Shown: positions 9,660-41,340, counted from the stretch's first letter. The stretch: 64,000 bases of DNA from Candidatus Hydrogenedens sp. (GCA_049968235.1 JBMFRC010000001.1:320001-384000); one strand, 5' to 3'. Numbers and translations are program-made. Notes: generated by a model not told the origin, from the sequence alone.

Positions 9660-10226
9660 ATGAAAATCCTGTCTTTATTGGGAAGCCCTAAAAAAAATGG
9701 GAACTCCGCACATGCATTGAACTATCTCGAAGAACAACTGAAACAACAGAACCATGAAATAAAACATATCCATGTCTCTTCCTTCCTTATTGAAGGGTGT
9801 AGGGAATGTTATTGGTGTAAACAGGAGGGGAATTTTTTGTGTTGCAATAACGATGATGCAATACCTATCTTAAAAGGAATGCTTGATTCAGATGCTATTA
9901 TCTTTTCTGCACCGACCTTTTGTTGGGGTTTTCCCGCACAAATGAAAGCCCTTTTCGACCGCATGTTCTGCCTGATTTCATGGAAAGAAGGAGATAGTGA
10001 AAATAAATCTTTGCTGAAAGGGAAAACTATGGCACTCATTGTAACTGCAGGGGGTGAAGTGAAAAATAATGCAGAACTTTTAGGAATTGCCTTCAACAAT
10101 ATGGCAGAATTTATGAATTGTAAATCTGCAGGGATAGTTTATATTGCCCCCTGCGAAGGTATTCATTCTATCAATGATAAGATAAAAAAACAATTAGACA
10201 ACTTAGCCCAAAATCTGAGTATCTAA
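9660..10226 (+). CDS. Flavodoxin-like fold NAD(P)H-dependent FMN reductase / iron-sulfur flavoprotein-like protein
   Basis: LLGSPKKNGNS N-terminus typical of the NADPH-dependent FMN reductase / multimeric flavodoxin fold. Cys cluster CRECYWC...CC. Last gene of the operon. Confidence 0.55.
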   Translation: MKILSLLGSPKKNGNSAHALNYLEEQLKQQNHEIKHIHVSSFLIEGCRECYWCKQEGNFLCCNNDDAIPILKGMLDSDAIIFSAPTFCWGFPAQMKALFDRMFCLISWKEGDSENKSLLKGKTMALIVTAGGEVKNNAELLGIAFNNMAEFMNCKSAGIVYIAPCEGIHSINDKIKKQLDNLAQNLSI

Positions 10227-10523: not shown

Positions 10524-11759
10524 TTATCTTTCGTTAGAATTATTCTTCAGGATTCCCCTTACCTTGCTATTTTGTGTCAATAACAAGAAGGAAAGAATTA
10601 CTAAAACAAATATATCACTCAGATGTGAATTTGTTGAAGGTCCACCGGAACCGCAAGATACAATGAAAGTTCTCTTGGCTCCTTTACTCATTACCAGTAT
10701 AACCTCTGTCCCCTTAACAACTTCAGTTCCAACAGAGGGCTCGGTTCGGATTATGCTCCCTTTCGGTACATCTTTGCTATATTCTTCTTTAATCGTTGCG
10801 GATACCTTAAGTCCTGCAGATGTTAGTATTTGAATAGCCTCGTCTTTAGATTTTCCTTTAACATCCGGCACTTTTACTTTCTGAATAGGTTCTCCTTCAT
10901 TACTTCCTTCGGGAGTACCTTCAACTACACCTTCAGGGGTTCCTTCTGGACTACCTTCCTGATGACCTTCGACTGTTCCTTCGCCTTCTGCATTCCCTTC
11001 GACAGAACCTTCTGTGCTTCCTTCTATACTACCCTCTTGCATACCTTCAGGAATGCCTTCTGTTGAACCTTCTTGTGCTCCTTCTCCTTCGAGAGTGCCT
11101 TCTATTATACCTTCTTGCTGTCCTTCGGTGATTCCTTCAACATTTCCTTCGCCTTCTGCAGGCGGTTCTAATGGAAGTATTTTAGGTGCTTTCGGGTCAT
11201 CAAACATGGGAACATAAGCAAATATATCGTTGATTTGGACTTGAGCCAAATTTATTTGTGCATCCCCGGTTTGTTTCATACGGAACAATACTTTGAGCAA
11301 TTCAAGACTTCCCTTAGCACCGATATTTTCAGAACTGCTTCCTGCAATTTTCAGACTACCTGTAGCATTTGCATTAGAGTTATAACTTAACTTCATATTG
11401 CTAACTGCATCACCTAATACGACCTCCATTACCTCCGCATATTCTTTATCGAAATTAATTACAAGAGAGAAGCCCGCTATATTGGATACATTGTTCATTA
11501 CCACAGATACCCACTTTTCAGAGCCTGCTGTTCCAGATAAGTAATCTGTTAATTGGGCATAAACAGTTGCATCCTCTTTTTCTACTCGTGCAAGGGTAGA
11601 CTCCGCAGACAAAGAACCTGCATCTGCCAGCCATTTTAAGTCGCTTATATAGTCTTCATAACTCTTTGCGTCTATTTTCTTTCCTGTTGGCATTACATCT
11701 TTACCTGTTAACCAGCGTTGTAGCATGCTGGAGTCAGCACTATCCACCATTCCATCCAT
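10524..11759 (-). CDS. C-terminal fragment of a disrupted giant surface protein: dockerin-like start, cohesin-like domain, xEGxxEG acidic repeat, PASTA domain, C-terminal Gly/Ser-rich + hydrophobic + basic tail
   Basis: ORF begins inside a dockerin repeat (GDFNMDGMVDSADSSMLQRWL continues upstream in another frame). Homologous to 11846-14179 and to the intact 20173-25416 protein. Tail SCGSGGP...FVLVILSFLLL...KVRG. Confidence 0.55.
   Translation of the reverse strand: MDGMVDSADSSMLQRWLTGKDVMPTGKKIDAKSYEDYISDLKWLADAGSLSAESTLARVEKEDATVYAQLTDYLSGTAGSEKWVSVVMNNVSNIAGFSLVINFDKEYAEVMEVVLGDAVSNMKLSYNSNANATGSLKIAGSSSENIGAKGSLELLKVLFRMKQTGDAQINLAQVQINDIFAYVPMFDDPKAPKILPLEPPAEGEGNVEGITEGQQEGIIEGTLEGEGAQEGSTEGIPEGMQEGSIEGSTEGSVEGNAEGEGTVEGHQEGSPEGTPEGVVEGTPEGSNEGEPIQKVKVPDVKGKSKDEAIQILTSAGLKVSATIKEEYSKDVPKGSIIRTEPSVGTEVVKGTEVILVMSKGAKRTFIVSCGSGGPSTNSHLSDIFVLVILSFLLLTQNSKVRGILKNNSNER
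10870..11170 (-). repeat. Imperfect 12-nt-periodic coding tandem repeat (nnnnccttc on the + strand) encoding xEGxxEG acidic linker
   Basis: Visible periodicity of ccttc every 12 nt. Protein EGNVEGITEGQQEGIIEGTLEGEGAQEGSTEG... Similar tracts at 12955-13135, 13558-13700 and 20335-20445. Confidence 0.7.
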
Positions 11760-11845
11760 ATTAAAGTCACCGGATTTCTGAATACAGGGATTTCCTCCTG
11801 TGTTATTTGTCCAATAATCCAGGATATATTGTGTGTCTAAATCGT

Positions 11846-14179
11846 TTACTTCATATTATTATCCGCATCACCAAAGACACATCCGTCTGTAACACACAAT
11901 TGTCCATCTTCTAATATAAGTTCTAACGGTTGTGTAAATGAGGAGATCACATCGTATAGGCGAACTCCATTGCCGGCTCCATCATCCGGAATAAGGTGTA
12001 ACTGTCCACATAAAGGACCTAAAACAGATAAATTGGGTTTAGCAATAATATTAAACAGAGTCCCAGCACCATACAAACTTTCTGCTTTTATTCCTGCTGC
12101 AGCAATTCGAACATTAATTGTCTCACCTTGAGGTATAGCTAATGATGCTATCATCATCCCACTAGTAATACCTGATGGTAATACGGTGATAGTCTCGGGG
12201 TCTGATATTAAGGCAGATGGCAATTCCGAATCAATCTGTATGGATGTTGCTGAAACATCATAAACTGATTTTGAGTTCACGGGAATACGAATAAGTATTT
12301 CATCAAGATTTTGTGGATTCGGTTGTAGCCAATAAAGACTGGTATCTGTTATATTAACCTGTTCAGGGAAGAATACGGTTAAGTATTGTCCACGAACCGT
12401 CTCCGAAGCATCTGATAACACAGTATAACGGTCCACATCACTTACAGCCTGTATGGCATATTGGTAGTAAATCCCTAATTCTACCGCATTATCTATATAT
12501 TCTAATGTTGTTAGATAACCTTCATAAGGCAACCTGTCCGGATTATTCAATCGTTGCCAATCTGTCAATGAATTCCCATCTCTATCTACTGTCCTGCGAT
12601 ACACATTATAGCCAGCAATATTATACTCAGGATTTGTATCCCATGCTACGCGAACACTATGCGGTCCACTATAAGGACGTGGACGGAATGATTTTTGAAT
12701 ATTTCCGGGGTCTAATTCAACAAGCAATTCAGCATTGGTATCCACAGGTTGTATCGTTTTGGGCTTATATTTCCGCTTTGTAAAGTCCAAACGATATGGC
12801 GGTTGCAATGTACCTAAATCTGGAAAGGCAAAACGTCCATTATTATCTGTTAGCACAGGTTCATTCCCTTTACTATCTGCAACGCTAATTTGGACTAATA
12901 CACCGGGAATCGGGCTTTTGCTTATACTATTTATCACCTGACCACGAACACCTGCATATTCGCCTTCGAATGTCCCTTCCGTAGTTCCTTCAATAGTTCC
13001 CTCCGGAATTCCTTCAATTACTCCTTCAGGTATTCCTTCAACATTACCATCCATAGGACCTTCGGGAATCCCTTCGATAACACCTTCAATTGTTCCTTCC
13101 GTTACACCTTCAGGTGTCCCTTCTTCACAGGGTCCTGTGGAAACCCAGATATCCACAGGTATTTCTATTGTATTCTCATAATTACAAGTGCCTTCTACAG
13201 CCATAGGTTCTTGCAAAGCGATGTATCCAGCGGGATAATTATTATCACATACCTCAACAATCTGTCCTAATAATAATCCATAATCTACAATTAATTGTTG
13301 TGCCTCTTCCAATGACATACCTATAACATTAGGAACTATGGTACAGGGTCCACAAGAGATAATCAGGTCAACGATTGTTCCAATCTCTACTGTATTTCCA
13401 CCACCGGGTATTTGTTCAACGACTGTGCCTGCCGGGTATTGGTCATTGCACATCTCAATAATAGCACCAATATTTAGGTTGGCATTACTAATTTCTCCCG
13501 TTGCTTCCTGTTGCGGAAGTCCTATCATATATGGAACTATAGTTGTTTCAATAGCACCTTCGCCTTCAGACATCCCTTCGCCTTCAGACATCCCTTCGCC
13601 TTCGAATAGCCCTTCTGAACTGCCTTCAATACTACCTTCGGTAGTTCCTTCAAATGAACCTTCTCCTTCTACAATACCTTCAACTACACCGGGTTCAGGC
13701 TCTCCAATAACAGGATTGAGTGGGTCTTCAAATCTTGGGGTATGTCCATATTTATCGTGTATCTGAACCTGAACAAATTTAATATCGCCTTTTCCATCTC
13801 GCTTAATCTTAAACTTTACTTTTACCAATTCAACTTCTCCAGAGGTTCCCAACTCTTCTTCACCTCCCGCACTTATCCGCAAACTGCTACTGGAACCAGA
13901 ATTTACTACTTCATAATTCCATCGCCATATATTTGCTGCATTCACAGGTTTTACCTGCTTTACTTCAGCAAAATCACTATCATAATTCAAGACAAATTCA
14001 AATCCTGCCACATTTGTTACTTCATCAGCCACAATGGCAATCCATTTATCACTGCCTGCAGACCCTTCTAATGTGCCACGGAACCACACCTTTACTCCCA
14101 CATTATTCTTTTCTAATTTGGCTAACTTTGCTTGTGCGGATAGGGAACCATGGGAAGCTAACCATTTCAATTCATCCAC
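11846..14179 (-). CDS. Central fragment of the disrupted giant surface protein: cohesin-like, EG repeats, 2 PASTA-like, EG repeats, carboxypeptidase-regulatory-like, FN3, dockerin start
   Basis: 777-aa ORF. Its frame stays open upstream of the annotated Met into a dockerin repeat, interrupted only by an in-frame TGA at 14270-14272. The C-terminal GDADNNMK* continues as a dockerin after a frameshift near 11840. Confidence 0.55.
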   Translation of the reverse strand: MDELKWLASHGSLSAQAKLAKLEKNNVGVKVWFRGTLEGSAGSDKWIAIVADEVTNVAGFEFVLNYDSDFAEVKQVKPVNAANIWRWNYEVVNSGSSSSLRISAGGEEELGTSGEVELVKVKFKIKRDGKGDIKFVQVQIHDKYGHTPRFEDPLNPVIGEPEPGVVEGIVEGEGSFEGTTEGSIEGSSEGLFEGEGMSEGEGMSEGEGAIETTIVPYMIGLPQQEATGEISNANLNIGAIIEMCNDQYPAGTVVEQIPGGGNTVEIGTIVDLIISCGPCTIVPNVIGMSLEEAQQLIVDYGLLLGQIVEVCDNNYPAGYIALQEPMAVEGTCNYENTIEIPVDIWVSTGPCEEGTPEGVTEGTIEGVIEGIPEGPMDGNVEGIPEGVIEGIPEGTIEGTTEGTFEGEYAGVRGQVINSISKSPIPGVLVQISVADSKGNEPVLTDNNGRFAFPDLGTLQPPYRLDFTKRKYKPKTIQPVDTNAELLVELDPGNIQKSFRPRPYSGPHSVRVAWDTNPEYNIAGYNVYRRTVDRDGNSLTDWQRLNNPDRLPYEGYLTTLEYIDNAVELGIYYQYAIQAVSDVDRYTVLSDASETVRGQYLTVFFPEQVNITDTSLYWLQPNPQNLDEILIRIPVNSKSVYDVSATSIQIDSELPSALISDPETITVLPSGITSGMMIASLAIPQGETINVRIAAAGIKAESLYGAGTLFNIIAKPNLSVLGPLCGQLHLIPDDGAGNGVRLYDVISSFTQPLELILEDGQLCVTDGCVFGDADNNMK

Positions 14180-14182
14180 ATA

Positions 14183-15574
14183 TCCTTTGCCCGCTGTTGA
14201 GATTTTTGGAGGTGTAATACTTTTTCTTGCTAACCAACGCTGAATTAAACTGGAATCCGCACTATCTACTCACCCATCGAGATTAATATCTCCTGATTTT
14301 AAGATGCATGAATGTGCACCTACTTTCCTAACCCAATAATCCAGAACAAATTGCTCATCTGTACTATCAATTACACTATCATTATTTACATCTCCATGAA
14401 TACATCCCCCTGAAACGCATAATCGTCCATCCACAAGAAGCACAGGTAAGGTTCTGTCTGATTTTGAATTACATTATATAACCGAACACCATTTCCCACA
14501 CCATCATCAGGAACTAAATGTAATAAACCACACTCATTCAAAAGATTTAAGCGAGGTTTTGCAAGAATATTAAATAATACTCCAGAACCATATAAACTCT
14601 CTGCTATCCCACCAGCAGATGATATACGAACATTAATTTTATCTCCATTTCTAACGGCATTGGCACTTATATTCATACCTGCGGTAATACCTGAGGGCTC
14701 CACCGTAATTGTGTCGGGATTGAGCAATAAACTTCTGGGCAATTCCGCATCGATTTGTATGGAAGTAGTGGAAACATCATATACAGCCTCTGAATTAACA
14801 GGTATTCTTACTAATTGTTGTTATGGATTTTGAGGGTCTCTTTCCCAGAGAAACATACCGCTATCTTTATAATTTACTTGTTCCGGGAAGAAAATAGTTA
14901 AAAATTGCCCTACTACATCTTCCGAAGCATCCGAAAGATTGGAATAACGGTCGACATCACTAACTGCCTGTATTGCATATTGATAGCGAATACCCGGTTG
15001 TATTGCGGTATCTGTATATTCTAATCCTCCAATATATCCTTCATAAGGAGGTAATCCCGGATTATTCAATTTTGCCCAAATAGAACTTCCTACTGTCCGA
15101 CGATATACATTATAGCCAGCAATGTTATATTCAGGATTTGTATCCCATCCAATACGGACACTATTGGTTCCTCCATAAACACGAGGAATGGTGGGTCTCT
15201 GAATATTTCCCGGCTCTATTTCCGCAAAAAGTTCTGCACCCGAATCAACAGGTTGAACCGTTTTCGGTTTAAATTTATTCTTTGTAAAATCCAGACGATA
15301 GGGAGGTAATAAACTCCCTAAATCGGAAAATTCAAATAGCCCATTTTTCATCTGTTAAAACAGGCTCTGTACTCTGTTTATCTGCAATACTTATTCCAAC
15401 AAGTACTCCCTCTACAGGTTTTTTGCTAATACTGTTAATAACCTGTCCCTTAACACTAAAGACTTTTTCTGCTACTGCTTGATTAGTAATAGCACATGCT
15501 ATTACTAATAGTGATATGCTCAAAAATATATTATTTTTTACAAAAATTGACTTTGCCCTACTTTTTGCATTCAT
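14183..15574 (-). pseudogene. N-terminal portion of the same giant surface protein (signal peptide, CarbopepD_reg-like, FN3, cohesin-like, dockerin), broken into ORFs 15332-15574, 14821-15351 and 14386-14742 by a frameshift and in-frame stops
   Basis: Paralog alignment with 11846-14179 (e.g. YRLDFTKNKFKPKTVQPVD vs YRLDFTKRKYKPKTIQPVD). TAA at 14821-14823 sits in-frame between two ORFs (DPQNP*QQLVRIP vs paralog NPQNLDEILIRIP). Frameshift in an A/T run at ~15341-15349. Frameshift at ~14430-14450. TGA at 14270-14272 where the paralog has ATG (DG*VD vs DGMVD). Confidence 0.55.
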
Positions 15575-15745
15575 TTTAGGTCTCCTTTGATTTATTCGCT
15601 CCAGTAGTTGGTTATTTTTTTATCCTTATTAAATAGCATTTAATAACAAAATTTGCCTGTTTTTTTGATAATCGTTGCCTCAAATAAGAACTATGATTCT
15701 TATGTGATTAGTGGTGAATAGAAGAAAATAATACTATTTTTAGAC

Positions 15746-17925: not shown

Positions 17926-20184
17926 ATGCATTTCTGGCTGATTAATGACAATGTTTTATTAAAATCTTCCCGTGCAGACATCGGTGGAAAAGGCTGGGGG
18001 CTGGTTCGATTAAAATTACAGGGATTAAATGTGCCACCTTTCGGAATAATCAGCACAGAAGGTGTGAAATATAAACTCTGGAAAACCGATACAGATTTTC
18101 AAAATGCAATAATGGCATGGTGTAAAGAGATATGGGATTGTTCCATAAGTAAGAAAGTAATCGTCCGCTCATCTGCATGTGAGGAAGACCATCAACATCA
18201 TTCTTTTGCAGGAAAGTTTTTAACAGAGGTTATAACAAAGCCAGAAGAACTTGTTCCAACACTGGACAGGATAGCCAAACATTATGCTTTAACTATAAAA
18301 ATGGATACGGGGAATTTTTCTGAAGGTCCCCATGGACTTGCAATTATTCTCCAGGAGTTTGTCAGTGGTGAAATCTCCGGCGTATGCTTTTCGACCCGAC
18401 CTATGAATGCAAATCCTCAACAAGTATATTGTGAAGTAGTAAATGGTGAAAATAAGTTGTTGGTTGATGGGGAAATACAACCCACTCGGATACTTTTTTA
18501 TCCCTCCACCGCAGAATTGATAGATTTTCAGGAAGGTTCTAATGGACCTGAATCAATACCTGAAGAATTATTAATAGAATTATCTCATGGGCTAATGAAG
18601 ATGGAATGGGATTACCGCACTGCAGTGGATATGGAATGGACATGGAATGGTAACAAGGTATGGTTTTTACAGATTCGCCCAATTACAAAGGTAACTCCTT
18701 CCCATAATTTATATCCAAAGGAATGTGCTACTTGCTGGTTTTTTGACCAACGTTTTATTGAACCGATTACAACTATTACCCAAACCACACTTATTCCGTT
18801 AATCCTGAGAAAGGCAATCACAGAGGGACTTAACATGCGACGAAAAAATACCCCCATTGAACCGTATTACTTTGGGGGTCAGGTGTATATCCCCCATCGG
18901 GCTTACTTCGATTTACTGGAGGGTTGTCCTAAATGGTGGCTTTCCTCCGATTTAAAACTGTTATTCCCTAATAACTGTGGTTGCCCGCATAAAAAAAAGA
19001 ACTTCCTGGGAATAGAATTCTGGCTGGATGCTTTTCGTTCATTGTTAAAACACTGGCGTGATGCTATTTTTGTGTTATGTCGCTGGGGACAATGGAAGAA
19101 GGATTTATCAAAGAAATTAAGTCTGTGGAATAAGGAGGATTTGTCAGAGATTACAACAGATGAATGGGTAACGCAATGGGAGCAATGCCAGAGATTATCC
19201 GAAGAATTTTTAGAAATACATCGCTGGGCAATACTCTGGTCCAGTTATGTATATCGTTTAGGGGGAAAGTATATCGTTCGTGGTAAGGAAAGACAGTATC
19301 CCTCTATTACGACACGGGCAAATCACATATTGACATCTTATTTATTCACCCGTGACATAAAATTATTAGCCCTCCTTCGCACTGAATATTCACACCGCAC
19401 AGAAAGTCTCGATTTTATATCTCCTCGATGGGGAGAATGGCTTTCCGGTGAGGAACAAAATGAATTGTTTAAAACGCAATTATTAGAGGAGAGGAAAGAT
19501 ATTCCATTAACATCACTGCAAACAAGGGAAAAAGCAGGTATTCTGTATCGTATTTTCGCAAAGTTTATACATCTGCGTGAGGAACAACGATTTGAATGGG
19601 AAAAAATATTAAATGTACAGAAAAAATTATTAAAGGAAGCAGGTAAACGATTGGTAGAAAAAGGTATCTTGATGGAGATAAATCAGGTCTGGTTTATAAG
19701 CGGGCTGGAATTAATGGAAGCACTTATAAAGGATAAGCCAATTAATCTAAAAGAAGTTTTGCTACGCCAACATCAATGGTGCGTTGAACATATATTTACA
19801 AAACCATTATTTATCAACGAAGGTGGTTTCATACTATCTACTTCCGAAAAAGATAAAGATACATGGTCAGGCTGGGGTGTGTCCGAAGGAAGAGTAAAAG
19901 GGACTGCCTATGTGAGCAGTAATCCGACTTCACTCCCATCCAATATCGCACATCCTCGTATTCTTGTAACACCTTGTTTAAATCCCGGACAGACATGGTG
20001 TCTGCAATACTGGGACGGTGTTCTATTGGAACGAGGCAGTGAACTGTCTCATCCTGCTATCATTGCACGGGAGATGAATATCCCCATGATTGCGAATTTA
20101 CCTGAGATTACACATAAACTAAACACGGGCGATTTAATTTATATAGATGCAACTTATGGTAAAGTTAGCCGTTTAAAATCTTAA
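17926..20184 (+). CDS. PEP-utilizing enzyme family protein (PEP synthase / pyruvate phosphate dikinase-like; PPDK_N ATP-grasp-like N-domain + phosphohistidine mobile domain)
   Basis: N-terminal GGKGWGLVRL resembles the PEP/pyruvate-binding N-domain. C-terminal mobile domain with SHPAIIAREMNIP (phospho-His motif). 752 aa. Confidence 0.65.
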   Translation: MHFWLINDNVLLKSSRADIGGKGWGLVRLKLQGLNVPPFGIISTEGVKYKLWKTDTDFQNAIMAWCKEIWDCSISKKVIVRSSACEEDHQHHSFAGKFLTEVITKPEELVPTLDRIAKHYALTIKMDTGNFSEGPHGLAIILQEFVSGEISGVCFSTRPMNANPQQVYCEVVNGENKLLVDGEIQPTRILFYPSTAELIDFQEGSNGPESIPEELLIELSHGLMKMEWDYRTAVDMEWTWNGNKVWFLQIRPITKVTPSHNLYPKECATCWFFDQRFIEPITTITQTTLIPLILRKAITEGLNMRRKNTPIEPYYFGGQVYIPHRAYFDLLEGCPKWWLSSDLKLLFPNNCGCPHKKKNFLGIEFWLDAFRSLLKHWRDAIFVLCRWGQWKKDLSKKLSLWNKEDLSEITTDEWVTQWEQCQRLSEEFLEIHRWAILWSSYVYRLGGKYIVRGKERQYPSITTRANHILTSYLFTRDIKLLALLRTEYSHRTESLDFISPRWGEWLSGEEQNELFKTQLLEERKDIPLTSLQTREKAGILYRIFAKFIHLREEQRFEWEKILNVQKKLLKEAGKRLVEKGILMEINQVWFISGLELMEALIKDKPINLKEVLLRQHQWCVEHIFTKPLFINEGGFILSTSEKDKDTWSGWGVSEGRVKGTAYVSSNPTSLPSNIAHPRILVTPCLNPGQTWCLQYWDGVLLERGSELSHPAIIAREMNIPMIANLPEITHKLNTGDLIYIDATYGKVSRLKS

Positions 20185-23100
20185 GTTCGAAAGGTCTGAC
20201 TTGTCCAACGGGTGTTCTCTCCTTCGCATACCACTCATAGCAAGTAATAACATGCCCATCAACACAAAATCCAATAGATATTTTAACCAATTGTCTCCAT
20301 CCCTGGATTTATGATTACACCCACAAATTCCAGTATTTTGCCCCTCTCCTTCCCCTTCTCGAGTGCCCTCAACATTCCCTTCCACTATTCCTTCCGGATT
20401 ACCTTCTTGAGTTCCTTCCAGAGTTCCTTCACTAACTACTATACCTGCTTCTGCTTTATCAATATATCCATCCTTATTGGTATCAGCACTATCAAAAGTA
20501 TCTCGGGACAGGGTGGAATATCGTGCCACTGCTTCTTCATAGGAAACTTTCCCATCCTTATTCGTATCCACCAAATCAAAATTTGTTTTTAGGTCATTTA
20601 TGAATTGCTCTACCCCGGTTATGGTAATAGAAGCACCTTTTGCATTAATTACTCCATACCAACTCAGGTCATCTCCAAATTCCCCCTTTATTTTTACTTC
20701 GCGTATTTGAATGTTTATTTTCTTTGATGTCATCGTTGTGGGTTTAAACTTTATTTGTATAATTCGTCCTTTTTCTTTTGTTGTAATGGGTTTTTCGCTA
20801 CTTATTGAAACTTTCAAATAACCCTCACCGACTTCTGTATCCTTCTTAAAGTTGCTGGCAATATCTGCCATGTTTAATCCGTAGAAATTTATACCTTCAT
20901 CATAGGTTAAGAGCAAATCCATTCCCGCAACACCTAATAATGAACTTAATTCTATACCTGTGCGATATTCATTGTTTGAGTCCGGTGTTAGGTTATCTAC
21001 AACAATTTCCACCGTACGATTATTTTCCGTTTCTAACAAGGCTTTTTCCCCAATCACGGTTGAACTCGGATTGATTGGAAGCCCTGCCAATTTACGCAGT
21101 AGTAACGACACATCCGCACAATCTAAAATTCCATCTCCATTAAAATCACCTCTCCGTTTATCACATTCCAAATCAACAATACCTGCTTTGCGAACAATCT
21201 TGCGCAGGAACACAATCGTATCAGACATACCAATGTAACCATCAGTATCCATATCTCCATAGATGCAACGACTACTAATACAATTCGTATCTGGGTTTTC
21301 TTCCAATACATTGAGTTGTCCATGAACCAATTCTACTGGCAATTCCTTCTGCTGGGTATCTTTAATAATAACCTTCTGCAATTTCAGGTCTGTATCCTGA
21401 GCACAACTTCCTGCCACTGTATTCTGTCGCACACGAAAAACCATATCAAAGAGGTGTCCTTCTCCATAAAGCACTTTCTTCTCATTATCAACTCTGGGTC
21501 CCGCATGGAATTTTATAACACCCTGTGTACGGGTATCCGAAACAACCTCAAGATTTCGTGTTACAACCGTTTTTTGAACCTCTACAAGTTCAAGCACTGT
21601 GTTGTTGTAACTCACATTAATATCAATCGTATAGGGTTCCAATCCCCGTACACTGTTTATATTTATCGGTATCTGAATTGTATCCCCACTTCCTTCTGGT
21701 ATCCAATCGATTGTAGGTATCCATACACGTAGCTTACCCGGTTCTGCTTTGACAGGCTCTGTAGGGTCGCTTTGTTGTTGATTGGTAGCAATAGCAATCA
21801 AACGATAATACCATGCCCGAGAGGTATCCACTTCGTTATCTGTGTAATTTGTACCTGTAATAATATTTGAGGAAACAGTAATCCACGGTCCGTTTCGTGT
21901 TTCGCTTCGTTCTAATTGGTATCCTGCAAGATTTCGCTCCACATTAGGCTCCCAGATAAGATAAACATGGTCTATCCCTGAAAAAACCTGCAATCCATGA
22001 GGGGTTGAAATCTTTGTCCCAGCAGGGTCAGGACCATTACTTACAATTAACTCAACCGTTGTTCCGTTCAATACGGAACTTCCTCCAACAGGAGATTGTC
22101 CCATTACAACATTTTGTGAAACGGTATCGCTATACTGCATTACTGTACGGGTCAGCAAACCCGTAGATTGGATTTGCCCTATTGCAGAAGTTATATTCTG
22201 CCCAATAACATCCGGTACCGTGATATATGTGTTTCCAGAACATTGTCCTGTTGAAACCCAAATTGTAACTTCCGCACCTCGATTTACTCCACTATAAGCA
22301 ATTGGTGATTGGCGTATTACCTGCCCCATGGCAACATAATTGTTACATTCCCGTTCCACCTTAACATGCAAATCCGCTATCTGTATTGCCTCATTCGCCT
22401 GCTGTTCGCTTCTCCCTACAACATCTGGAACCAATACACCCGGACATAATCCACTGGATACAGTTAACTGAATATAGGTTCGTGATGAAATTACATCTCC
22501 CGATGATGGGATTTGACTCAGGACATTTCCCTGTGCCACTGTGTTACTACAGTTATAAGTCGTACGGATTCTATTCAGTCCTACACCTTCAAGAGTGTTT
22601 TTTGCTTGTTGTTCTGTCATACCGACCACCCCCGGAATAGTTACGAAGATTTCTCCTTCTCCTGTTCCTTCGCCCTCTCCCTCTCCTATAAGGTCTACAA
22701 TCCATTTAAGTAATGGATAATCTGTCCCTTCATTTGCAACCCATATATTAACAAAATCCCAATCGTTGTATGTTGCTTGCTTATACATTTCTATTGTGGT
22801 TTTTCCTGTTCCACCATCGGAAAACGATGTCCCGGCAGATTGCACATCCCAATAACTGGACACTACTGTTCCTCCATCGTTATACCCAACAAGCCCACCA
22901 ACATATAGTTTCCCCGTAACATTGGCACTGCTATAACAATTACGAATATTTGTTTCAAAAGAATTCTCAGTATTCATTTGGTACCCAACCAATCCACCGA
23001 TAAACGAATTTCCGCCAACAAAGGAATCATAAACAAAACTATCTGTTATATTGCCACCATAATTTATCCCTACAAAACCACCCACTCCATAATCAGCTGT

Positions 23101-25416
23101 TTCGCCATTCACAAGTATTTCACCGGCAACACATCTTAATATTTTCCCCTTATTTCCACCGACGAATCCACCAATACTATCATCTTGGCTTATTCCCGAA
23201 ATATAACTTGCCAGGACACCACATTCCACAATTTCACACTCACTATCAACAACAACACCCGCTATAGCACCCACAAAATAATACCCTGTAAAACTACTTT
23301 CAACAATTATTAAATTTTGAATCTTTCCCGGAGAGGTTACAATCCCAAACAGAGCTGTATAATCCGCCTCAGAATTATCAATATAAAGGTTAGAAATAAT
23401 ATGGTTTTGCCCATTAAAATTACCTCTAAATGGTTTTTCCCATGTTCCTATGGGTCTAAACCCTTTCCCATTATTCCAGTTGACTGTATCACTTGCATCT
23501 ATATCTTGAGTCAAAATATATGAACCAAAAGGTGGATAATCCGGGTCATTCCCTATCTTTTGCAACTCCTCAATACTATCTATTTCAATAGTTGGACAGG
23601 GACCTTTGAAAACGAACAAATATACTTCGCTGTTCTGTATAACTTGTGCTCCACCTTCGGGTGATTGACCTATAACAGTACCCACCGGAGTAATTTCTTC
23701 ACCGCACCCATAATCGACAATTACATGGAAACCCATTTCTTGTAGAGTAGTAACAGCATTTGCTTCTGTCATTCCCATTACATCCGGCATGTTAACATAA
23801 ACACAGCGTCCTGTTGAAACAACAATATATACAGTGCTATCTATTTGCACAACATTTCCTGCAATGGGTTCCTGCTCTATAACAACCCCTTCAGGAATAT
23901 TGTCATCACAACGGTATAGGACATTGGCAGAGAGATTTTGTACCTGAACTGTATTTATAGCGGTAGTTTCATCCATCCCGATAACATCAGGTATTGTTAT
24001 AGAACAGGGTCCTCGTGAAATAAGCAAAGAAATCTCCACATCAGGTAATTCATTTGTGCCCGGTACGGGGTTTTGAGTTATCACTGCCCCAGAAGGAACT
24101 CCATCATGGCAATCATAATATGTAGTGATTGTACCCGTAAACCCGGAGGAACGAAGTAAATTTATAGCTTCTGTCCCATTCATTCCTACAACATTAGGTA
24201 GGGGGATGAAACACGGACCTGTGGACACAATAATGGAAACAGTACCATTAAGCTCAACCGATGCCCCTGCTCCGGGCTGTTGGTCCATAACTACCCCCGC
24301 AGGATATATATTGCTACAACTATAAGACACATCAGCAATCAATCCCAATCCATTTAACATATTAACTGCATTTTCTTCCATCATTCCTAACAAACTTGGA
24401 ACTTCCACCGTATGTTGTATATTTATAACCCATCTCAAATAGGGATAGTCTGTTCCCTCTTCTATACCCCATACATTCGTGAAATCCCAGCCTGCATAAG
24501 TCGCCTGTTGTTTCATTTCTCCCGTAGTTTTCCCTGTTCCACCATCAGAAAAGAACATTTGGGACACAGTCGTATCCCAATAACTGGATGTTACAGTCCC
24601 CCCATCATTAAATCCGATAAGTCCACCTATATACATGGTTCCTGCTACAGCCGAACTACTATAACAATTTGTAACTGTGCCAGTGCTTTTCTTTGAATTT
24701 TCGAGTATTCCAACCAGACCACCGACACCGTATGCTCCTGCTATTGAGGTGATATATGAAGATGAATACACACAACTATTTATAATAACTCCACCTGTAT
24801 TACGACCCACCAATCCACCCACTCCATATTGAGCATAACTATCATAAATTGTCGAATTAGAAACTACACATCTATCTATAACTCCATAATTTCCTCCTAC
24901 CAATCCACCAACACTATTATATATGCTTCCCATCCCTTCAATATCTGAAGAGGCAACTCCACATTCTCTGATTTCTCCCGCCATATTTAATCCAACCAAT
25001 CCCCCGATAAATAAAGAACCTGCGATATTGGAATTAAATAAAATAACATTGTGAACATTCCCGCCGGATATATTTCCAAACAAACCTGCAAATTCAGATT
25101 GTCTATTAATATAAAGATAGTAAATACCATAATTCTGACCATCAAAACTCCCTGTAAATGGATTATTCGTATCCCCTATCGGTTTAAATCCTCTGCCACT
25201 ATCCCAATTAATTGTATCGCTGGCATCTATATCCCGTGTTAATACATAATTCCCGTTAAGTGGATATTCAGGCTCATTCCCTATTCTCTGCAAATCTACA
25301 ATATTGCTTATAGGAATACCTTGTGCGGAAACCAAAATACACATGCAAAAAACAAAAATGGTCAATAGTGATAAAATATAGGTAGATTCTCTCGTAGACA
25401 TTTTACAATACCTCAA
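20173..25416 (-). CDS. Giant (1747 aa) secreted multidomain surface protein: signal peptide, 2 GLUG-motif modules, ~7 PASTA domains, FN3, cohesin-like, type-I dockerin, cohesin-like, EF-hand/dockerin-like pair, xEGxxEG repeat, C-terminal hydrophobic+RRR tail
   Basis: Signal peptide MSTRESTYILSLLTIFVFCMCILVSAQG. Repeated GGLVG (GLUG). PASTA pattern PxV[IV]GM..xxA...L...G....V repeated. Dockerin GDMDTDGYIGMSDTIVFLRKIV...GDFNGDGILDCADVSLLLRKLAG at 21101-21265. Tail GICGCNHKSRDGDNWLKYLLDFVLMGMLLLAMSGMRRRE. Confidence 0.8.
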   Translation of the reverse strand: MRYCKMSTRESTYILSLLTIFVFCMCILVSAQGIPISNIVDLQRIGNEPEYPLNGNYVLTRDIDASDTINWDSGRGFKPIGDTNNPFTGSFDGQNYGIYYLYINRQSEFAGLFGNISGGNVHNVILFNSNIAGSLFIGGLVGLNMAGEIRECGVASSDIEGMGSIYNSVGGLVGGNYGVIDRCVVSNSTIYDSYAQYGVGGLVGRNTGGVIINSCVYSSSYITSIAGAYGVGGLVGILENSKKSTGTVTNCYSSSAVAGTMYIGGLIGFNDGGTVTSSYWDTTVSQMFFSDGGTGKTTGEMKQQATYAGWDFTNVWGIEEGTDYPYLRWVINIQHTVEVPSLLGMMEENAVNMLNGLGLIADVSYSCSNIYPAGVVMDQQPGAGASVELNGTVSIIVSTGPCFIPLPNVVGMNGTEAINLLRSSGFTGTITTYYDCHDGVPSGAVITQNPVPGTNELPDVEISLLISRGPCSITIPDVIGMDETTAINTVQVQNLSANVLYRCDDNIPEGVVIEQEPIAGNVVQIDSTVYIVVSTGRCVYVNMPDVMGMTEANAVTTLQEMGFHVIVDYGCGEEITPVGTVIGQSPEGGAQVIQNSEVYLFVFKGPCPTIEIDSIEELQKIGNDPDYPPFGSYILTQDIDASDTVNWNNGKGFRPIGTWEKPFRGNFNGQNHIISNLYIDNSEADYTALFGIVTSPGKIQNLIIVESSFTGYYFVGAIAGVVVDSECEIVECGVLASYISGISQDDSIGGFVGGNKGKILRCVAGEILVNGETADYGVGGFVGINYGGNITDSFVYDSFVGGNSFIGGLVGYQMNTENSFETNIRNCYSSANVTGKLYVGGLVGYNDGGTVVSSYWDVQSAGTSFSDGGTGKTTIEMYKQATYNDWDFVNIWVANEGTDYPLLKWIVDLIGEGEGEGTGEGEIFVTIPGVVGMTEQQAKNTLEGVGLNRIRTTYNCSNTVAQGNVLSQIPSSGDVISSRTYIQLTVSSGLCPGVLVPDVVGRSEQQANEAIQIADLHVKVERECNNYVAMGQVIRQSPIAYSGVNRGAEVTIWVSTGQCSGNTYITVPDVIGQNITSAIGQIQSTGLLTRTVMQYSDTVSQNVVMGQSPVGGSSVLNGTTVELIVSNGPDPAGTKISTPHGLQVFSGIDHVYLIWEPNVERNLAGYQLERSETRNGPWITVSSNIITGTNYTDNEVDTSRAWYYRLIAIATNQQQSDPTEPVKAEPGKLRVWIPTIDWIPEGSGDTIQIPININSVRGLEPYTIDINVSYNNTVLELVEVQKTVVTRNLEVVSDTRTQGVIKFHAGPRVDNEKKVLYGEGHLFDMVFRVRQNTVAGSCAQDTDLKLQKVIIKDTQQKELPVELVHGQLNVLEENPDTNCISSRCIYGDMDTDGYIGMSDTIVFLRKIVRKAGIVDLECDKRRGDFNGDGILDCADVSLLLRKLAGLPINPSSTVIGEKALLETENNRTVEIVVDNLTPDSNNEYRTGIELSSLLGVAGMDLLLTYDEGINFYGLNMADIASNFKKDTEVGEGYLKVSISSEKPITTKEKGRIIQIKFKPTTMTSKKINIQIREVKIKGEFGDDLSWYGVINAKGASITITGVEQFINDLKTNFDLVDTNKDGKVSYEEAVARYSTLSRDTFDSADTNKDGYIDKAEAGIVVSEGTLEGTQEGNPEGIVEGNVEGTREGEGEGQNTGICGCNHKSRDGDNWLKYLLDFVLMGMLLLAMSGMRRREHPLDKSDLSNLRF

Positions 25417-40011: not shown

Positions 40012-40169
40012 AAACAACTATATACTTTGTATATACCTATTAAAAACTTTCACCTCGAACAATCGGAAATTATTTTAATATAAATTAGTGGAAACTTTTT
40101 ATATTTGTGCTAAAGTTAATATAACACCTAAAAAGTTTGCAGTAAATTTCCCCAGATAATGCAAATATT

Positions 40170-40981: not shown

Positions 40982-41039
40982 TTTTAATCTCCTTTCCAAA
41001 TAAGGTTAAAATTTTATTTTTATCGATATGAGTTCTTTA

Positions 41040-41340
41040 TATCACATGATATAACATAATAAATATTAATAACCAATAATGATTATTATAATAAATATAT
41101 TATATTATAACATGTTATTCAATGTTAATTTAATATATAATTTAAGTTATTATACAATAGTAGAAATTATAATAGAATATCAATATTTGTTATACTCATT
41201 ATTAATATTTACTATTATATCTCTATTTTACTAAAACGTTCTAACTATGCTATCGATTTATAGGAGTAATACAAGAATTACTCTTGAGACCTCTGAATAA
41301 AAAAATACGATAAATAGTATATGAAAAATTATATATAGGA
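41040..41340. other. Extremely AT-rich (~85% AT) island with TATAAT/TTATAATA-like reiterations
   Basis: Direct reading. No ORF. Lies in a 1 kb gene-free gap. Confidence 0.5.

What the first reader, a model, noticed from the sequence alone, without database searches (positions are those of the whole stretch)
20173..25416. 1747-aa secreted mosaic protein combining GLUG, ~7 PASTA, FN3 and intramolecular dockerin-cohesin modules
PASTA domains are normally confined to PBPs and Ser/Thr kinases. Here ~7 occur in a giant surface protein with duplicated GLUG (IgA-protease-like) modules. A bona fide two-segment type-I dockerin is flanked on both sides by cohesin-like beta-sandwich domains in the same polypeptide. 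An EF-hand-like Ca-binding pair follows (DTNKDGKVSYEE / DTNKDGYIDKAE). This implies self-assembly or oligomerisation via dockerin-cohesin contacts outside any cellulosome context. A paralogous locus lies at 10524-15574.
Basis: partly seen in the sequence, partly recalled or inferred. Interest (0 to 1): 0.8.

Follow-up and report, generated by a model that had tools for sequence, protein, structure and literature searches.

The report
Anchored surface protein with cohesin-dockerin pedestal
This is a real gene for a giant, non-enzymatic, membrane-anchored envelope protein of an uncultured Hydrogenedens bacterium. Its cohesin-dockerin-cohesin part is a conserved, probably self-locked base module shared by many proteins of two little-known phyla.

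Summary

The dockerin and second cohesin fall below Pfam cut-offs in this sequence alone. Family profiles (E 1e-9 to 1e-13 against solved dockerins and cohesins) and an AlphaFold model confirm them.

The organism is a close relative of Ca. Hydrogenedens terephthalaticus, probably a diderm.

The main new point is that FN3-Coh-Doc-Coh is a conserved ~460-aa cassette, not an ad hoc mosaic.
- It sits near the C-terminus of at least 79 protein clusters.
- Named members come from Hydrogenedentota and Sumerlaeota only.
- Payloads are unrelated, and domain spacing is almost invariant.
- It is predicted to fold as one compact body (pLDDT 90, pTM 0.90).

I read it as a calcium-stabilised pedestal joining variable payloads to a Cys-type C-terminal anchor. 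Here the payload is an adhesin-like GLUG/PASTA rod.

Binding in cis versus in trans, localisation and ligand are untested. The "paralogous locus" is real but broken by two stops and three frameshifts. Verdict: new variant of non-cellulosomal cohesin-dockerin proteins.

The parts
20173..25416 (-). Whole ORF (1747 codons from TTG; probable ATG start at 25401, ~1742 aa), including the stop codon at 20173-20175
   Evidence: Orthologs at 73-81% identity cover 99% of it. Synteny is conserved in Ca. H. terephthalaticus and a Logan contig.
25321..25401 (-). Signal peptide, aa 6-32 (MSTREST-YILSLLTIFVFCMCILV-SAQG)
   Evidence: Read from the sequence. It holds the highest hydropathy window in the protein. 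The hydrophobic N-terminus is conserved in orthologs. No signal-peptide predictor was available.
24412..25323 (-). GLUG module 1, aa 32-335 (homologous to the N-terminal non-catalytic domain of IgA1 proteases)
   Evidence: Pfam Glug, 5 stretches, E=2.3e-16. Profile A4 against 3n6z_A gives E=5.3e-18, and against the S. pneumoniae IgA1 protease N-domain 6xja gives 2.4e-13.
23596..24411 (-). PASTA repeats 1-4, aa 336-607, each with a Cys pair 35 residues apart
   Evidence: Pfam PASTA. M. tuberculosis PknB PASTA array 2kui_A, E=6.7e-18. Cys positions.
22687..23595 (-). GLUG module 2, aa 608-910
   Evidence: Pfam Glug, 4 stretches, E=6.3e-12. It is 49% identical to module 1 in alignment A4.
22027..22686 (-). 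GEGEGE linker (aa 911-922) plus PASTA repeats 5-7 (aa 923-1130)
   Evidence: Pfam PASTA best stretch at 1065-1127. NCBIfam PknB_PASTA_kin region matched at 924-1126.
21739..22011 (-). FN3 domain, aa 1136-1226 (first module of the cassette)
21301..21732 (-). Cohesin 1, aa 1229-1372, with the family-wide motif L.GEGHLFD
21067..21282 (-). Dockerin, aa 1379-1450: two Ca loops (DMDTDGYIGMSD, DFNGDGILDCAD), three helices, four conserved Cys
   Evidence: Pfam Dockerin_1 is 13.9-19.4 bits, below cut-off. Profile A3 against 2ccl_B gives 3e-10 and against 1ohz_B gives 1e-9. Ca ligands D1388, D1399 and D1435 are present in 77/77 homologs. AF2 helices have pLDDT 89-96.
20617..21033 (-). Cohesin 2, aa 1462-1600, a subtype distinct from cohesin 1
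   Evidence: No Pfam hit on its own. hhalign to the Pfam-positive post-dockerin cohesins of the paralog gives 82% probability, E=1e-5. Profile A3 against the A. fulgidus cohesin 2xdh gives 4.5e-13 and against 2vn5 gives 2.9e-10.
20437..20610 (-). EF-hand pair, aa 1603-1660
   Evidence: EF-hand_5 47.4 bits and EF-hand_1 43.2 bits as a slice.
20335..20436 (-). Acidic EG-x-x tetrapeptide-repeat spacer, aa 1661-1694
   Evidence: Read from the sequence. Similar spacers occur in orthologs and in the paralog.
20176..20334 (-). C-terminal tripartite tail, aa 1695-1747: GICGC motif, W-L-K-Y-L-L-D plus a hydrophobic helix, then RRR
   Evidence: Conserved in P0001-4, P0006, P0122-4 and P0138. No NCBIfam or Pfam model matches it. 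The design matches the Cys-type sorting signals described in bioRxiv 10.1101/2023.06.07.544157.
10524..15619 (-). Disrupted paralog carrying two copies of CarboxypepD_reg - FN3 - Coh - Doc - Coh - EG spacer - PASTA
   Evidence: Pfam results. Frame analysis. There is a TGA inside a dockerin loop (~14270), a TAA at ~14820, and frameshifts at ~15345, ~14475 and ~11850. hhalign links its modules to Coh1 and Coh2 of the target.

Best explanation
The gene encodes a large, non-catalytic protein exported by a Sec signal peptide. It stays tied to the cell envelope of a (probably diderm) Candidatus Hydrogenedens bacterium through a C-terminal tail made of a Cys motif, a transmembrane helix and an Arg cluster.

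Reading from the anchor outward, the parts are:
- an acidic EG-repeat spacer;
- a Ca-binding EF-hand pair;
- a ~460-aa FN3-cohesin-dockerin-cohesin cassette;
- a distal rod of three PASTA, a GLUG module, four PASTA and a second GLUG module (GLUG modules probably beta-helical, by homology only).

The cassette is the conserved functional core. It is an ancient fixed-order, fixed-spacing supermodule of Hydrogenedentota and Sumerlaeota. Its dockerin, with both Ca loops intact, is held between or against its own two cohesins, so that the four domains form one rigid body. It acts as a membrane-proximal pedestal that couples many unrelated payloads to the anchor.

In this protein the payload is adhesin-like. 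The PknB-type PASTA arrays serve as disulfide-stapled stalks and possible muropeptide or glycan binders. The IgA1-protease-type GLUG modules serve as binding surfaces.

What is shown: domain identities, order, conservation, family distribution and a confident compact predicted fold.

What is inferred: the cis dockerin-cohesin contact, the pedestal and anchoring role, surface exposure, Ca dependence and the ligand.
For: - Domain calls.
- Organism: a 100% identical partial protein is named Ca. Hydrogenedens sp.. An 87% identical ortholog lies in syntenic context in Ca. H. terephthalaticus. LolA and SurA-like genes in the window point to an outer membrane.
- Cassette conservation: an exhaustive HMMER search finds dozens of 50%-identity cluster representatives that match profile positions ~10-474 in a single stretch. 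79 retrieved proteins carry the whole cassette at ~25% identity to the target.
- Position: the cassette almost always lies within 13-260 aa of the C-terminus.
- Payloads differ: LVIVD, PKD, FGE-sulfatase, WD40, LamG, Calx-beta, FG-GAP, LRR, DUF5011. Only 13 of 79 have PASTA and 9 of 79 have GLUG.
- Homologs pass Pfam: Cohesin x2 and Dockerin_1 score above curated cut-offs in most of the 10 cassette homologs scanned.
- Spacing: FN3 to Coh1 has a median of 45 residues (IQR 45-45). Loop 1 to loop 2 is 23 (IQR 23-23). Doc to Coh2 is 48 (IQR 46-51). All over 77 sequences.
- Structure: AF2 with 36 sequences gives mean pLDDT 90.1 and pTM 0.90 over all 473 residues. The dockerin scores 89-96 and only the 7-residue Doc-to-Coh2 linker falls below 50.
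- Anchor: the Cys/TM/basic tail occurs in at least 25 of 79 cassette proteins, against 2 of 205 non-cassette proteins in the same sample once P0274, a 253-aa fragment that carries the second cohesin, is set aside.
- No catalytic site: no HExxH and no M26 catalytic domain.
- Family: a second member in Ca. H. terephthalaticus has 14 full PASTA plus one partial hit (15 PASTA hits), 3-4 GLUG modules, the same cassette, the EF pair and the CGC tail.
Against: - The model coordinates and PAE could not be read, so I do not know which cohesin face, if any, touches the dockerin. pTM 0.90 shows a fixed arrangement, not a canonical Coh-Doc interface.
- With only 9 sequences the same region gave pLDDT 61 and pTM 0.42, so the result depends on the alignment.
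- Both dockerin Ca loops and Arg1441 are as conserved as in trans-acting dockerins. That is also what an intermolecular binder would show.
- Some GLUG proteins and some cassette proteins carry extra terminal dockerins, which hints at trans interactions.
- No sorting enzyme or secretion system lies in the window.
- The tail matches no curated sorting-signal model.
- If the tail is an uncleaved stop-transfer anchor, the protein would be periplasmic, not on the surface.
- No ligand evidence exists for the PASTA or GLUG modules.
Confidence: 0.55

Rival explanations
1. Trans-acting cohesin-dockerin network. The dockerin of one molecule plugs into a cohesin of a neighbour. This would give chains or lattices of these proteins on the cell, or recruit dockerin-only passenger proteins, as a cellulosome-like scaffold without cellulases. 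A hybrid is possible: one cohesin occupied in cis and the other free for trans partners.
For: - Both Ca loops are canonical and are invariant or nearly invariant across the family.
- The two cohesins are different subtypes. Coh2 against Coh1 shows no hhalign similarity, while each matches its positional counterpart in the paralog. They could therefore have different partners.
- Dockerin-only GLUG proteins exist, with a dockerin at the extreme C-terminus (P0110, P0113, P0016). Some cassette proteins carry additional dockerins (tails).
- Several cassette proteins occur per genome.
- Non-cellulosomal proteins with one dockerin and several cohesins are described in ANME archaea (PMC9012536).
Against: - AF2 predicts the monomeric cassette as one confident compact body (pTM 0.90).
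- The 1 Doc: 2 Coh stoichiometry, the order and the spacing are fixed over ~25% identity. That is typical of an obligate fold rather than freely combinable modules.
- The taxa of the dockerin-only GLUG proteins are unknown.
- No scaffoldin with many cohesins turned up among the proteins retrieved here; those searches were seeded with the cassette and GLUG/PASTA, so this does not exclude one.
Confidence: 0.3
2. Inner-membrane-anchored periplasmic protein. The C-terminal helix with its RRR is a plain stop-transfer anchor (positive-inside). The whole ectodomain stays in the periplasm, where the PASTA repeats bind the cell's own peptidoglycan. The protein would then be an envelope spacer, tether or cell-wall monitor rather than a surface adhesin.
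For: - The topology is read directly from the sequence: signal peptide, C-terminal hydrophobic helix and a basic cluster.
- PASTA arrays homologous to PknB normally sit next to peptidoglycan.
- LolA and SurA-like genes imply a periplasm.
- No sorting enzyme or secretion genes lie nearby.
Against: - My estimate from typical domain sizes is that the extended ectodomain (7 PASTA, 2 GLUG modules, FN3 and the cassette) would be several times wider than a usual periplasm.
- The conserved Cys motif upstream of the helix would have no role in a plain anchor. It resembles the Cys-type sorting signals that are cleaved and sent to the surface (PMC11980579).
- Payloads of other cassette proteins (LRR, PKD, Calx-beta, LamG, FG-GAP) are typical surface or extracellular modules.
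Confidence: 0.12
3. An IgA1-protease-like or other hydrolytic enzyme, or a cellulosomal polysaccharide-degrading component.
For: GLUG modules are homologous to the N-terminal domain of M26 IgA1 proteases. Cohesin and dockerin are hallmarks of cellulosomes.
Against: - There is no HExxH and no Peptidase_M26 catalytic domain.
- The Peptidase_M26_N hit is only E=0.34.
- The target has no glycoside hydrolase, CBM or other catalytic Pfam family.
- The whole length is accounted for by binding, structural and linker modules.
Confidence: 0.03

Closest known systems
Non-cellulosomal cohesin/dockerin proteins: Archaeoglobus fulgidus cohesin 2xdh and its dockerin-bearing partners; ANME archaeal proteins with one dockerin plus several cohesins; survey by Peer et al. 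2009 as cited in PMC9012536
   Same: Cohesin and dockerin modules occur outside any plant-cell-wall-degrading context, sometimes in the same polypeptide. The best solved match of cohesin 2 is the A. fulgidus non-cellulosomal cohesin (E=4.5e-13; Foldseek TMt 0.80).
   Different: Here the modules form a fixed FN3-Coh-Doc-Coh cassette with invariant spacing. The cassette is predicted to be one rigid body, sits at the C-terminal end of many proteins and is coupled to a Cys-type anchor. I found no description of such a cassette in the papers searched.
Cellulosomal anchoring and adaptor scaffoldins (C. thermocellum OlpA/OlpC/SdbA, CipA X-dockerin; A. cellulolyticus ScaA/ScaB)
   Different: There are no SLH or sortase anchors, no CBM, no CAZyme partners and no tandem arrays of like cohesins. 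The organism is a probable diderm from another phylum. No PDB chain matches more than one cassette domain at low rmsd.
PknB/Stk1-type PASTA arrays of Gram-positive Ser/Thr kinases, and PBP2x
   Same: The four-repeat PASTA array aligns end to end with M. tuberculosis PknB (2kui, E=6.7e-18) and S. aureus Stk1 (3py9) extracellular regions.
   Different: There is no kinase or transpeptidase domain. The 7 repeats are split by GLUG modules. Six of the seven repeats carry a conserved Cys pair. The host probably has an outer membrane.
M26 IgA1 proteases (S. pneumoniae IgA1P 6xja; putative IgA1 protease fragment 3n6z) and other GLUG-motif giant surface proteins
   Same: Each ~300-aa GLUG module is homologous to the N-terminal non-catalytic domain of these proteases (E=5e-18 and 2.4e-13). 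Thousands of GLUG proteins in many phyla share it.
   Different: The catalytic metalloprotease domain and its HExxH are absent.
[quoted passage not shown]
   Same: The design is the same: a short motif with conserved Cys, then a hydrophobic helix, then an Arg cluster. The motif here is GCGC, which is also frequent in MYXO-CTERM. The tail is shared by many otherwise unrelated proteins of the lineage.
   Different: No NCBIfam model of these signals matches. The best was JDVT-CTERM at 12.9 bits against a cut-off of 27, on one distant homolog. A ~9-residue polar spacer and a conserved W-[LW]-K-Y-[LI]-L-D lie between the Cys motif and the helix. No cognate protease was identified.

Membership tests
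Cohesin (Pfam PF00963) | Sequence match to the family model above the curated cut-off | tested here: met
   Cohesin 1 scores 44.9 bits against a cut-off of 24.1. Cohesin 2 alone gives no hit. Its family profile hits solved cohesins 2xdh, 2vn5 and 1g1k at E=4.5e-13 to 5.8e-10. The equivalent modules of 10 cassette homologs score 33-90 bits, mostly as two stretches.
Cohesin (Pfam PF00963) | Nine-stranded beta-sandwich (jelly-roll) fold | tested here: met
Cohesin (Pfam PF00963) | Binds a dockerin | not testable with these tools
   There is only indirect support from the compact AF2 arrangement (pTM 0.90).
Dockerin type I (Pfam PF00404) | Sequence match above the curated cut-off | tested here: inconclusive
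   The target scores 13.9 bits in the whole protein and 19.4 bits as a slice, against a cut-off of 22.9. In 8 of the 10 homologs scanned the homologous module passes at 25.5-51.5 bits; P0204 reaches 21.2 bits and P0168 showed no dockerin among its 25 listed families. The family profile hits solved type I dockerins at 3e-10 and 1e-9.
Dockerin type I (Pfam PF00404) | Two duplicated ~22-residue segments, each a 12-residue Ca loop (D/N at positions 1, 3, 5, 12) followed by a helix | tested here: met
   The loops are DMDTDGYIGMSD and DFNGDGILDCAD. D1388, D1399 and D1435 are present in 77/77 homologs. Helices lie at cassette positions 270-280, 289-296 and 306-316 in the AF2 model.
Dockerin type I (Pfam PF00404) | Ca-dependent binding to a cognate cohesin; dual or single binding mode | not testable with these tools
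   Segment 2 is more conserved than segment 1 (S/A at positions 10-11; Arg1441 in 74/77; GLPxNP). This suggests a single binding face, by inference only.
PASTA-domain PBPs and PknB-type kinases | PASTA repeats (PF03793) | tested here: met
   Seven stretches, E=3.3e-85. PknB array 2kui, E=6.7e-18.
PASTA-domain PBPs and PknB-type kinases | Attached transpeptidase or Ser/Thr kinase catalytic domain | tested here: not met
   No such Pfam family is present. NCBIfam PknB_PASTA_kin scores 254.7 bits against a cut-off of 450 and matches the PASTA region only.
M26 IgA1-specific metalloproteases | N-terminal GLUG-containing domain | tested here: met
   Profile A4 against 3n6z gives 5.3e-18 and against 6xja/6xjb gives 2.4e-13. 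The Glug motif appears in 8 stretches.
M26 IgA1-specific metalloproteases | Catalytic zinc-metalloprotease domain with HExxH | tested here: not met
   No HExxH occurs anywhere in the protein. No M26 catalytic family is found. NCBIfam ZmpA scores 21.8 bits against a cut-off of 3000.
Fibronectin type III | Sequence and fold match | tested here: met
EF-hand pair | Two canonical 12-residue loops with Glu at position 12, above the Pfam cut-off | tested here: met
   EF-hand_5 47.4, EF-hand_1 43.2 and EF-hand_7 36.5 bits.
Cellulosome scaffoldin or cellulosomal component | CBM and/or CAZyme modules, tandem like cohesins, dockerin-bearing glycoside hydrolase partners | tested here: not met
   The target has no CBM or GH family, and none turned up in the window ORFs scanned. 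The family payloads scanned are not CAZymes. Genome-wide partners were not tested.
Cys-type tripartite C-terminal sorting signals (MYXO-CTERM class) | Signature motif with conserved Cys, then a TM helix, then a basic cluster at the extreme C-terminus | tested here: met
   The tail reads GICGC ... WLKYLLDFVLMGMLLLAMSGM RRR. The CGC motif is invariant in the four orthologs aligned (P0001-P0004) and recurs in all ten W-x-K-Y-[LI]-L-D tails, and variants occur in at least 25 cassette proteins.
Cys-type tripartite C-terminal sorting signals (MYXO-CTERM class) | Match to a curated model (TIGR03901 and relatives) | tested here: not met
   No NCBIfam hit at E<=10 for the target tail or for 9 of 10 homolog tails.
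Cys-type tripartite C-terminal sorting signals (MYXO-CTERM class) | Cognate CPBP/Rce1-like intramembrane protease in the genome; cleavage and Cys modification | not tested
   None is found among the window ORFs of at least 150 aa. The rest of the genome was not available. Housekeeping sortases need not be linked to their clients.

The most novel reading that the evidence does not exclude
FN3-Coh-Doc-Coh plus the Cys/TM/Arg tail is a previously undescribed surface-display system, found here in Hydrogenedentota and Sumerlaeota. A cis-locked cohesin-dockerin pedestal has one cohesin holding its own dockerin as a Ca-dependent clasp and the second left free. A lineage-specific myxosortase-like enzyme attaches the pedestal to the outer surface. 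Dozens of payloads are mounted on it. Dockerin-tipped passengers such as GLUG/PASTA proteins and proteases are recruited to it. The result would be a cellulosome-like machine aimed at peptidoglycan- and protein-rich necromass rather than plant cell walls.
Probability: 0.2. Interest if true: 0.85.

Novelty: new variant of a known kind. Interest (0 to 1): 0.6.

Why it matters
Cohesin-dockerin pairs are the classic example of modular extracellular assembly and are widely used in protein engineering. Almost everything known about them comes from cellulosomes of Firmicutes.

A conserved cassette in which a dockerin is permanently flanked by two different cohesins, and appears to fold with them into one body, would be a new way of using this pair: as an intramolecular clasp or pedestal. 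It would give a defined, testable ~460-aa object for structural work.

The cassette also marks, together with a Cys-type C-terminal tail, a whole repertoire of envelope proteins in two uncultured phyla whose cell surfaces are unknown.

PASTA arrays on such a protein in a probable diderm raise the testable idea that these scavengers bind foreign cell-wall material.

None of this is shown experimentally. The immediate value is a precise hypothesis and a protein family definition.

Tried and rejected
- Pfam and NCBIfam on isolated slices gave nothing for cohesin 2 or the C-terminal tail, and only sub-threshold scores for the dockerin and FN3. Family profiles were needed.
- Word-indexed homolog searches with the cassette found only 7 and 13 proteins and understated its spread. 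The exhaustive HMMER search was decisive.
- The first AlphaFold run with 9 sequences was unusable for the dockerin (pLDDT below 40; pTM 0.42). Only the 36-sequence alignment gave a confident model.
- Model coordinates and PAE are not exposed, so the Doc-Coh interface could not be read. I did not attempt DCA on 77 sequences because it would be underpowered.
- The afdb50 fold library was unavailable.
- hhalign of Coh2 against Coh1 shows no direct similarity. They are distinct subtypes, not a recent duplication.
- Protease reading rejected: no HExxH and no catalytic domain.
- Cellulosome reading rejected: no CBM or CAZyme modules.
- Literature searches pairing Hydrogenedentes or Sumerlaeota with cohesin, dockerin, PASTA or GLUG found nothing relevant. 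Peer et al. 2009 is not held.
- No tRNA or Rfam element occurs in the window.
- No sorting enzyme or secretion genes lie next to the gene in the window or in two syntenic contigs.


Full report
**1. The observation**

The window contains a single uninterrupted minus-strand ORF at 20173..25416. It has 1747 codons counted from a TTG. An ATG at codon 6 (nt 25401) is preceded by GAGG at a suitable distance and coincides with the N-termini of orthologs, so the protein is probably ~1742 aa.

The N-terminus (MSTREST-YILSLLTIFVFCMCILV-SAQG) has the shape of a Sec signal peptide and holds the highest hydropathy window in the protein. No predictor was available.

**2. Domain content**

Pfam on the whole protein gives:
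- PASTA x7, E=3.3e-85.
- Glug in 8 stretches, E=1.1e-20.
- Cohesin at 47 bits against a cut-off of 24.1.
- Several EF-hand models above cut-off.
- Dockerin_1 at only 13.9 bits against a cut-off of 22.9.
- No fn3.

When the protein is cut into slices:
- Cohesin 1 scores 44.9 bits.
- The dockerin scores 19.4 bits, still under the cut-off.
- The FN3-like slice hits only Tissue_fac, at E=0.016.
- The second 'cohesin-like' slice and the C-terminal 63 aa hit nothing.

**3. Relatives and organism**

- Full-length orthologs at 73-81% identity and a 49% relative share the architecture.
- A 100% identical partial protein is deposited as 'PASTA domain-containing protein [Candidatus Hydrogenedens sp.]'.
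- An 87% identical ortholog lies in Candidatus Hydrogenedens terephthalaticus.
- The gene order there is the same: ProC, GNAT, target, PEP-utilising enzyme, ThiE, HtrA.
- LolA and SurA-like genes in the window suggest an outer membrane.
- The neighbours are housekeeping genes. There is no operon of secretion or sorting genes.

**4. The cassette**

I aligned aa 1128-1600 with 8 relatives (A2) and ran it through an exhaustive HMMER search of 1.84 billion cluster representatives.
- There were 500 hits at E<1e-30.
- Among the best 150, about 73 match the whole profile (positions ~10-474) in one stretch.
- Locally, 79 retrieved proteins carry the complete FN3-Coh-Doc-Coh unit, and those outside the target's near relatives are only ~25% identical to it.

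A 36-sequence alignment (A3) used as a profile against PDB sequences settles the identities:
- FN3 against titin: 2.6e-30.
- Dockerin against XynY/Xyn10B type I dockerins 2ccl_B and 1ohz_B: 3e-10 and 1e-9.
- Cohesin 2 against the A. fulgidus non-cellulosomal cohesin 2xdh: 4.5e-13; against 2vn5 and 1g1k: about 1e-10.
- Cohesin 1 against 6kg8, 3ul4 and 3kcp: about 1e-7.

In ten cassette homologs Pfam itself calls Cohesin (mostly two stretches, 33-90 bits), and Dockerin_1 above cut-off in eight of them (25-51 bits).

hhalign shows that the two cohesins are distinct subtypes, each matching its positional counterpart in the paralog.

**5. The cassette behaves as one unit**

- Spacing between conserved anchor residues is almost invariant over 77 sequences. 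FN3 to Coh1 is 45 residues (IQR 45-45). Loop 1 to loop 2 is 23 (IQR 23-23). Doc to Coh2 is 48 (IQR 46-51).
- The Ca ligands D1388, D1399 and D1435 are present in 77/77, and Arg1441 in 74/77.
- Segment 2 of the dockerin, with its GLPxNP exit, is more conserved than segment 1.
- AlphaFold2 with 9 sequences failed (pLDDT 61, pTM 0.42, dockerin below 40).
- With the 36-sequence alignment it gave mean pLDDT 90.1 and pTM 0.90 for all 473 residues. All five models scored 85-90, the dockerin scored 89-96, and only the 7-residue Doc-to-Coh2 linker fell below 50.
- A pTM of 0.90 for four domains means their mutual arrangement is predicted with confidence.
- I could not read coordinates or PAE. A canonical Coh-Doc interface is therefore an inference, not a result.

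**6. Where the cassette sits and what it carries**

- In nearly all of the 79 proteins the cassette ends 13-260 aa from the C-terminus. The N-terminal part varies from 0 to ~3000 aa.
- Only 13 have PASTA and 9 have GLUG.
- Other payloads include LVIVD repeats, PKD, FGE-sulfatase, WD40 propellers, LamG, Calx-beta, FG-GAP, LRR and DUF5011.
- Every member that carries an organism name is from Hydrogenedentota or Sumerlaeota/BRC1. One cassette also turned up on a contig of a MAG labelled uncultured Nitrospiraceae (L007).
- Several occur per genome.
- Ca. H. terephthalaticus has a second family member of at least 2615 aa. It carries 15 PASTA hits (one partial), 3-4 GLUG modules, the cassette, an EF pair and the same tail.

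**7. The C-terminal tail**

After the EF-hand pair and an acidic EG-x-x repeat spacer, the protein ends in GICGC-NHKSRDGDN-WLKYLLDFVLMGMLLLAMSGM-RRR.
- The CGC motif, the W-x-K-Y-L-L-D helix start and the basic cluster are conserved down to 36% identical relatives.
- Looser versions (a GC, CxC or CC motif, a spacer with GD, a TM helix and basic residues) end at least 25 of the 79 cassette proteins. Of 206 non-cassette proteins in the same sample only 3 have one, and one of those (P0274) is a fragment that carries the second cohesin.
- The design is that of the Cys-containing tripartite sorting signals (MYXO-CTERM, 'GCGC motif', and others) proposed to be processed by CPBP/Rce1-like myxosortases (bioRxiv 10.1101/2023.06.07.544157; experimental work in PMC11980579, seen).
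- No curated model matches it, and that paper does not mention Hydrogenedentota.
- I treat it as a candidate lineage-specific member of that class. Its processing is not shown.

**8. The distal part**

- PASTA 1-4 align end to end with the PknB extracellular array (2kui, 6.7e-18).
- Six of the seven repeats have a Cys pair 35 residues apart. The pairs in repeats 2-5 are invariant across the four aligned orthologs. This suggests intradomain disulfides and an oxidising location.
- Each ~300-aa GLUG module is homologous to the N-terminal non-catalytic domain of IgA1 proteases (3n6z 5.3e-18; 6xja 2.4e-13).
- There is no HExxH and no catalytic domain.
- The protein is thus built entirely of binding, structural, linker and anchor modules.

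**9. Interpretation**

The most economical reading is an anchored envelope protein. Its conserved FN3-Coh-Doc-Coh cassette is a Ca-stabilised, self-contained pedestal near the membrane. Its GLUG/PASTA rod is the variable, outward-facing, adhesin-like payload.

Alternatives, which could be combined with this reading:
- Trans cohesin-dockerin networking. This is supported by dockerin-only GLUG proteins and by extra dockerins on some cassette proteins.
- A periplasmic, inner-membrane-anchored cell-wall binder.

Enzyme and cellulosome readings are rejected.

**10. Comparison with what is known, and novelty**

Non-cellulosomal cohesins and dockerins, including proteins with both, are known (PMC9012536 and references therein). 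NCBI already labels relatives as 'cohesin domain-containing' or 'PASTA domain-containing' proteins. The individual parts and the general idea are therefore not new.

Within the literature I could search, the following appear undescribed:
- the fixed four-domain cassette;
- its confident compact predicted fold;
- its C-terminal position under many unrelated payloads;
- its coupling to a Cys-type tail in two candidate phyla.

I rate it a new variant of a known kind, of moderate to high interest.

**11. The paralogous locus**

The region 10524-15619 (-) carries two copies of CarboxypepD_reg - FN3 - Coh - Doc - Coh - EG spacer - PASTA. It is broken by a TGA inside a dockerin Ca loop, a TAA, and three frameshifts, at least one of them in an A-run. 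It is either a decaying pseudogene or a badly assembled repeat.

Noticed in passing
window 10524-15619 (-): The paralog of the target carries two tandem cassettes (CarboxypepD_reg-FN3-Coh-Doc-Coh-EG spacer-PASTA). It is interrupted by TGA (~14270, inside a dockerin Ca loop), TAA (~14820) and frameshifts at ~15345, ~14475 and ~11850. It is either a pseudogene or an assembly error in a repeat.
   Followed up: partly
window 20176-20334 (-); also the tails of P0001-4, P0006, P0122-4, P0138, P0227, P0260, P0268, P0269 and others: The C-terminal Cys motif (GCGC, CxC or CC), spacer, TM helix and Arg/Lys cluster match no NCBIfam sorting-signal model. The tail co-occurs with the cassette (at least 25 of 79 against 2 of 205, setting aside the Coh2-bearing fragment P0274). 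It is a candidate new Cys-type C-terminal sorting signal of Hydrogenedentota.
   Followed up: partly
P0161, P0164, P0172, P0193, P0205, P0210, P0228, P0231, P0232, P0249, P0279 (C-termini): Cassette proteins that lack a TM tail end 13-22 aa after cohesin 2. The short conserved tail ends in W-x-[LM]-[YF]-[EQ] or similar (for example SSWSLYE, DAWMLYQ, NWNLFQ). It may be a second kind of C-terminal signal.
   Followed up: no
P0237, P0243, P0244, P0245, P0247, P0261, P0262 (C-termini): A repeated Cys-rich ~50-aa C-terminal element follows the cassette in another subgroup: ..YNVGxYGCDxxTEDGFAPG..C.PHTADY...L.ELLRVIQLFN.GGF..C..GEDGFC. I could not assign it to a family.
   Followed up: no
window 23596-24411 and 22027-22650 (-): Six of the seven PASTA repeats carry a Cys pair exactly 35 residues apart; the pairs in repeats 2-5 are invariant in the four aligned orthologs and the pattern recurs in P0006. 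They are probably intradomain disulfides. I do not recall these in kinase or PBP PASTA domains.
   Followed up: partly
window 20335-20436, 22651-22686 (-); paralog ~11156, ~13039, ~13681: Acidic E-G-x-x tetrapeptide-repeat linkers recur between modules and before the anchor. P0004 has a ~75-aa insert of this kind between PASTA 1 and 2. They look like a lineage-specific counterpart of Pro/Thr linkers.
   Followed up: no
window 6155-9601 (+), with 3593-4624 and 9660-10226: A 1148-aa ORF fuses multihaem cytochrome c modules (NapC/NirT, cytochrome c7/c3, MtrC-like) to a cytochrome b561-type membrane domain. An ApbE flavin transferase and an FMN reductase flank it, with a GFO/IDH/MocA oxidoreductase gene (4627-6084) between ApbE and the cytochrome. 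It may be an extracytoplasmic electron-transfer module.
   Followed up: no
window ~40000-46000, ORFs 42014-44356, 44302-45099, 45090-45542 (-): This is a low-GC stretch (0.32-0.34 against ~0.38-0.40 elsewhere). Its ORFs have no Pfam match. It may be an acquired island.
   Followed up: no
window 55422-58580 and 58568-59740 (-): Two overlapping large ORFs (1052 and 390 aa) have no Pfam family at E<=0.001. They lie next to a GT2 glycosyltransferase and a YfhO-like membrane protein.
   Followed up: no
window 49377-51284 and 53991-55295 (-): There is an M23 peptidase with a weak, sub-threshold Big_7 hit (22.5 bits, cut-off 24.1) and a C45/AAT-family protein. A GLUG/PASTA relative (P0062) is itself named a C45 family hydrolase. 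P0076 combines a subtilase with PASTA, GLUG and a dockerin. This hints that PASTA/GLUG modules can target hydrolases.
   Followed up: no
L007 (CAYRLQ010000184.1, 'uncultured Nitrospiraceae' MAG), match at 1026-2354: A full cassette (24% identity) lies on an 8.7-kb contig binned as Nitrospiraceae, outside the two phyla that hold all other named members. It is either a mis-binned contig or a horizontal transfer.
   Followed up: no
P0110, P0113, P0016: These GLUG-motif proteins have no cassette but carry a single dockerin at the extreme C-terminus. They are candidate passengers for free cohesins. Their organisms are unknown.
   Followed up: partly
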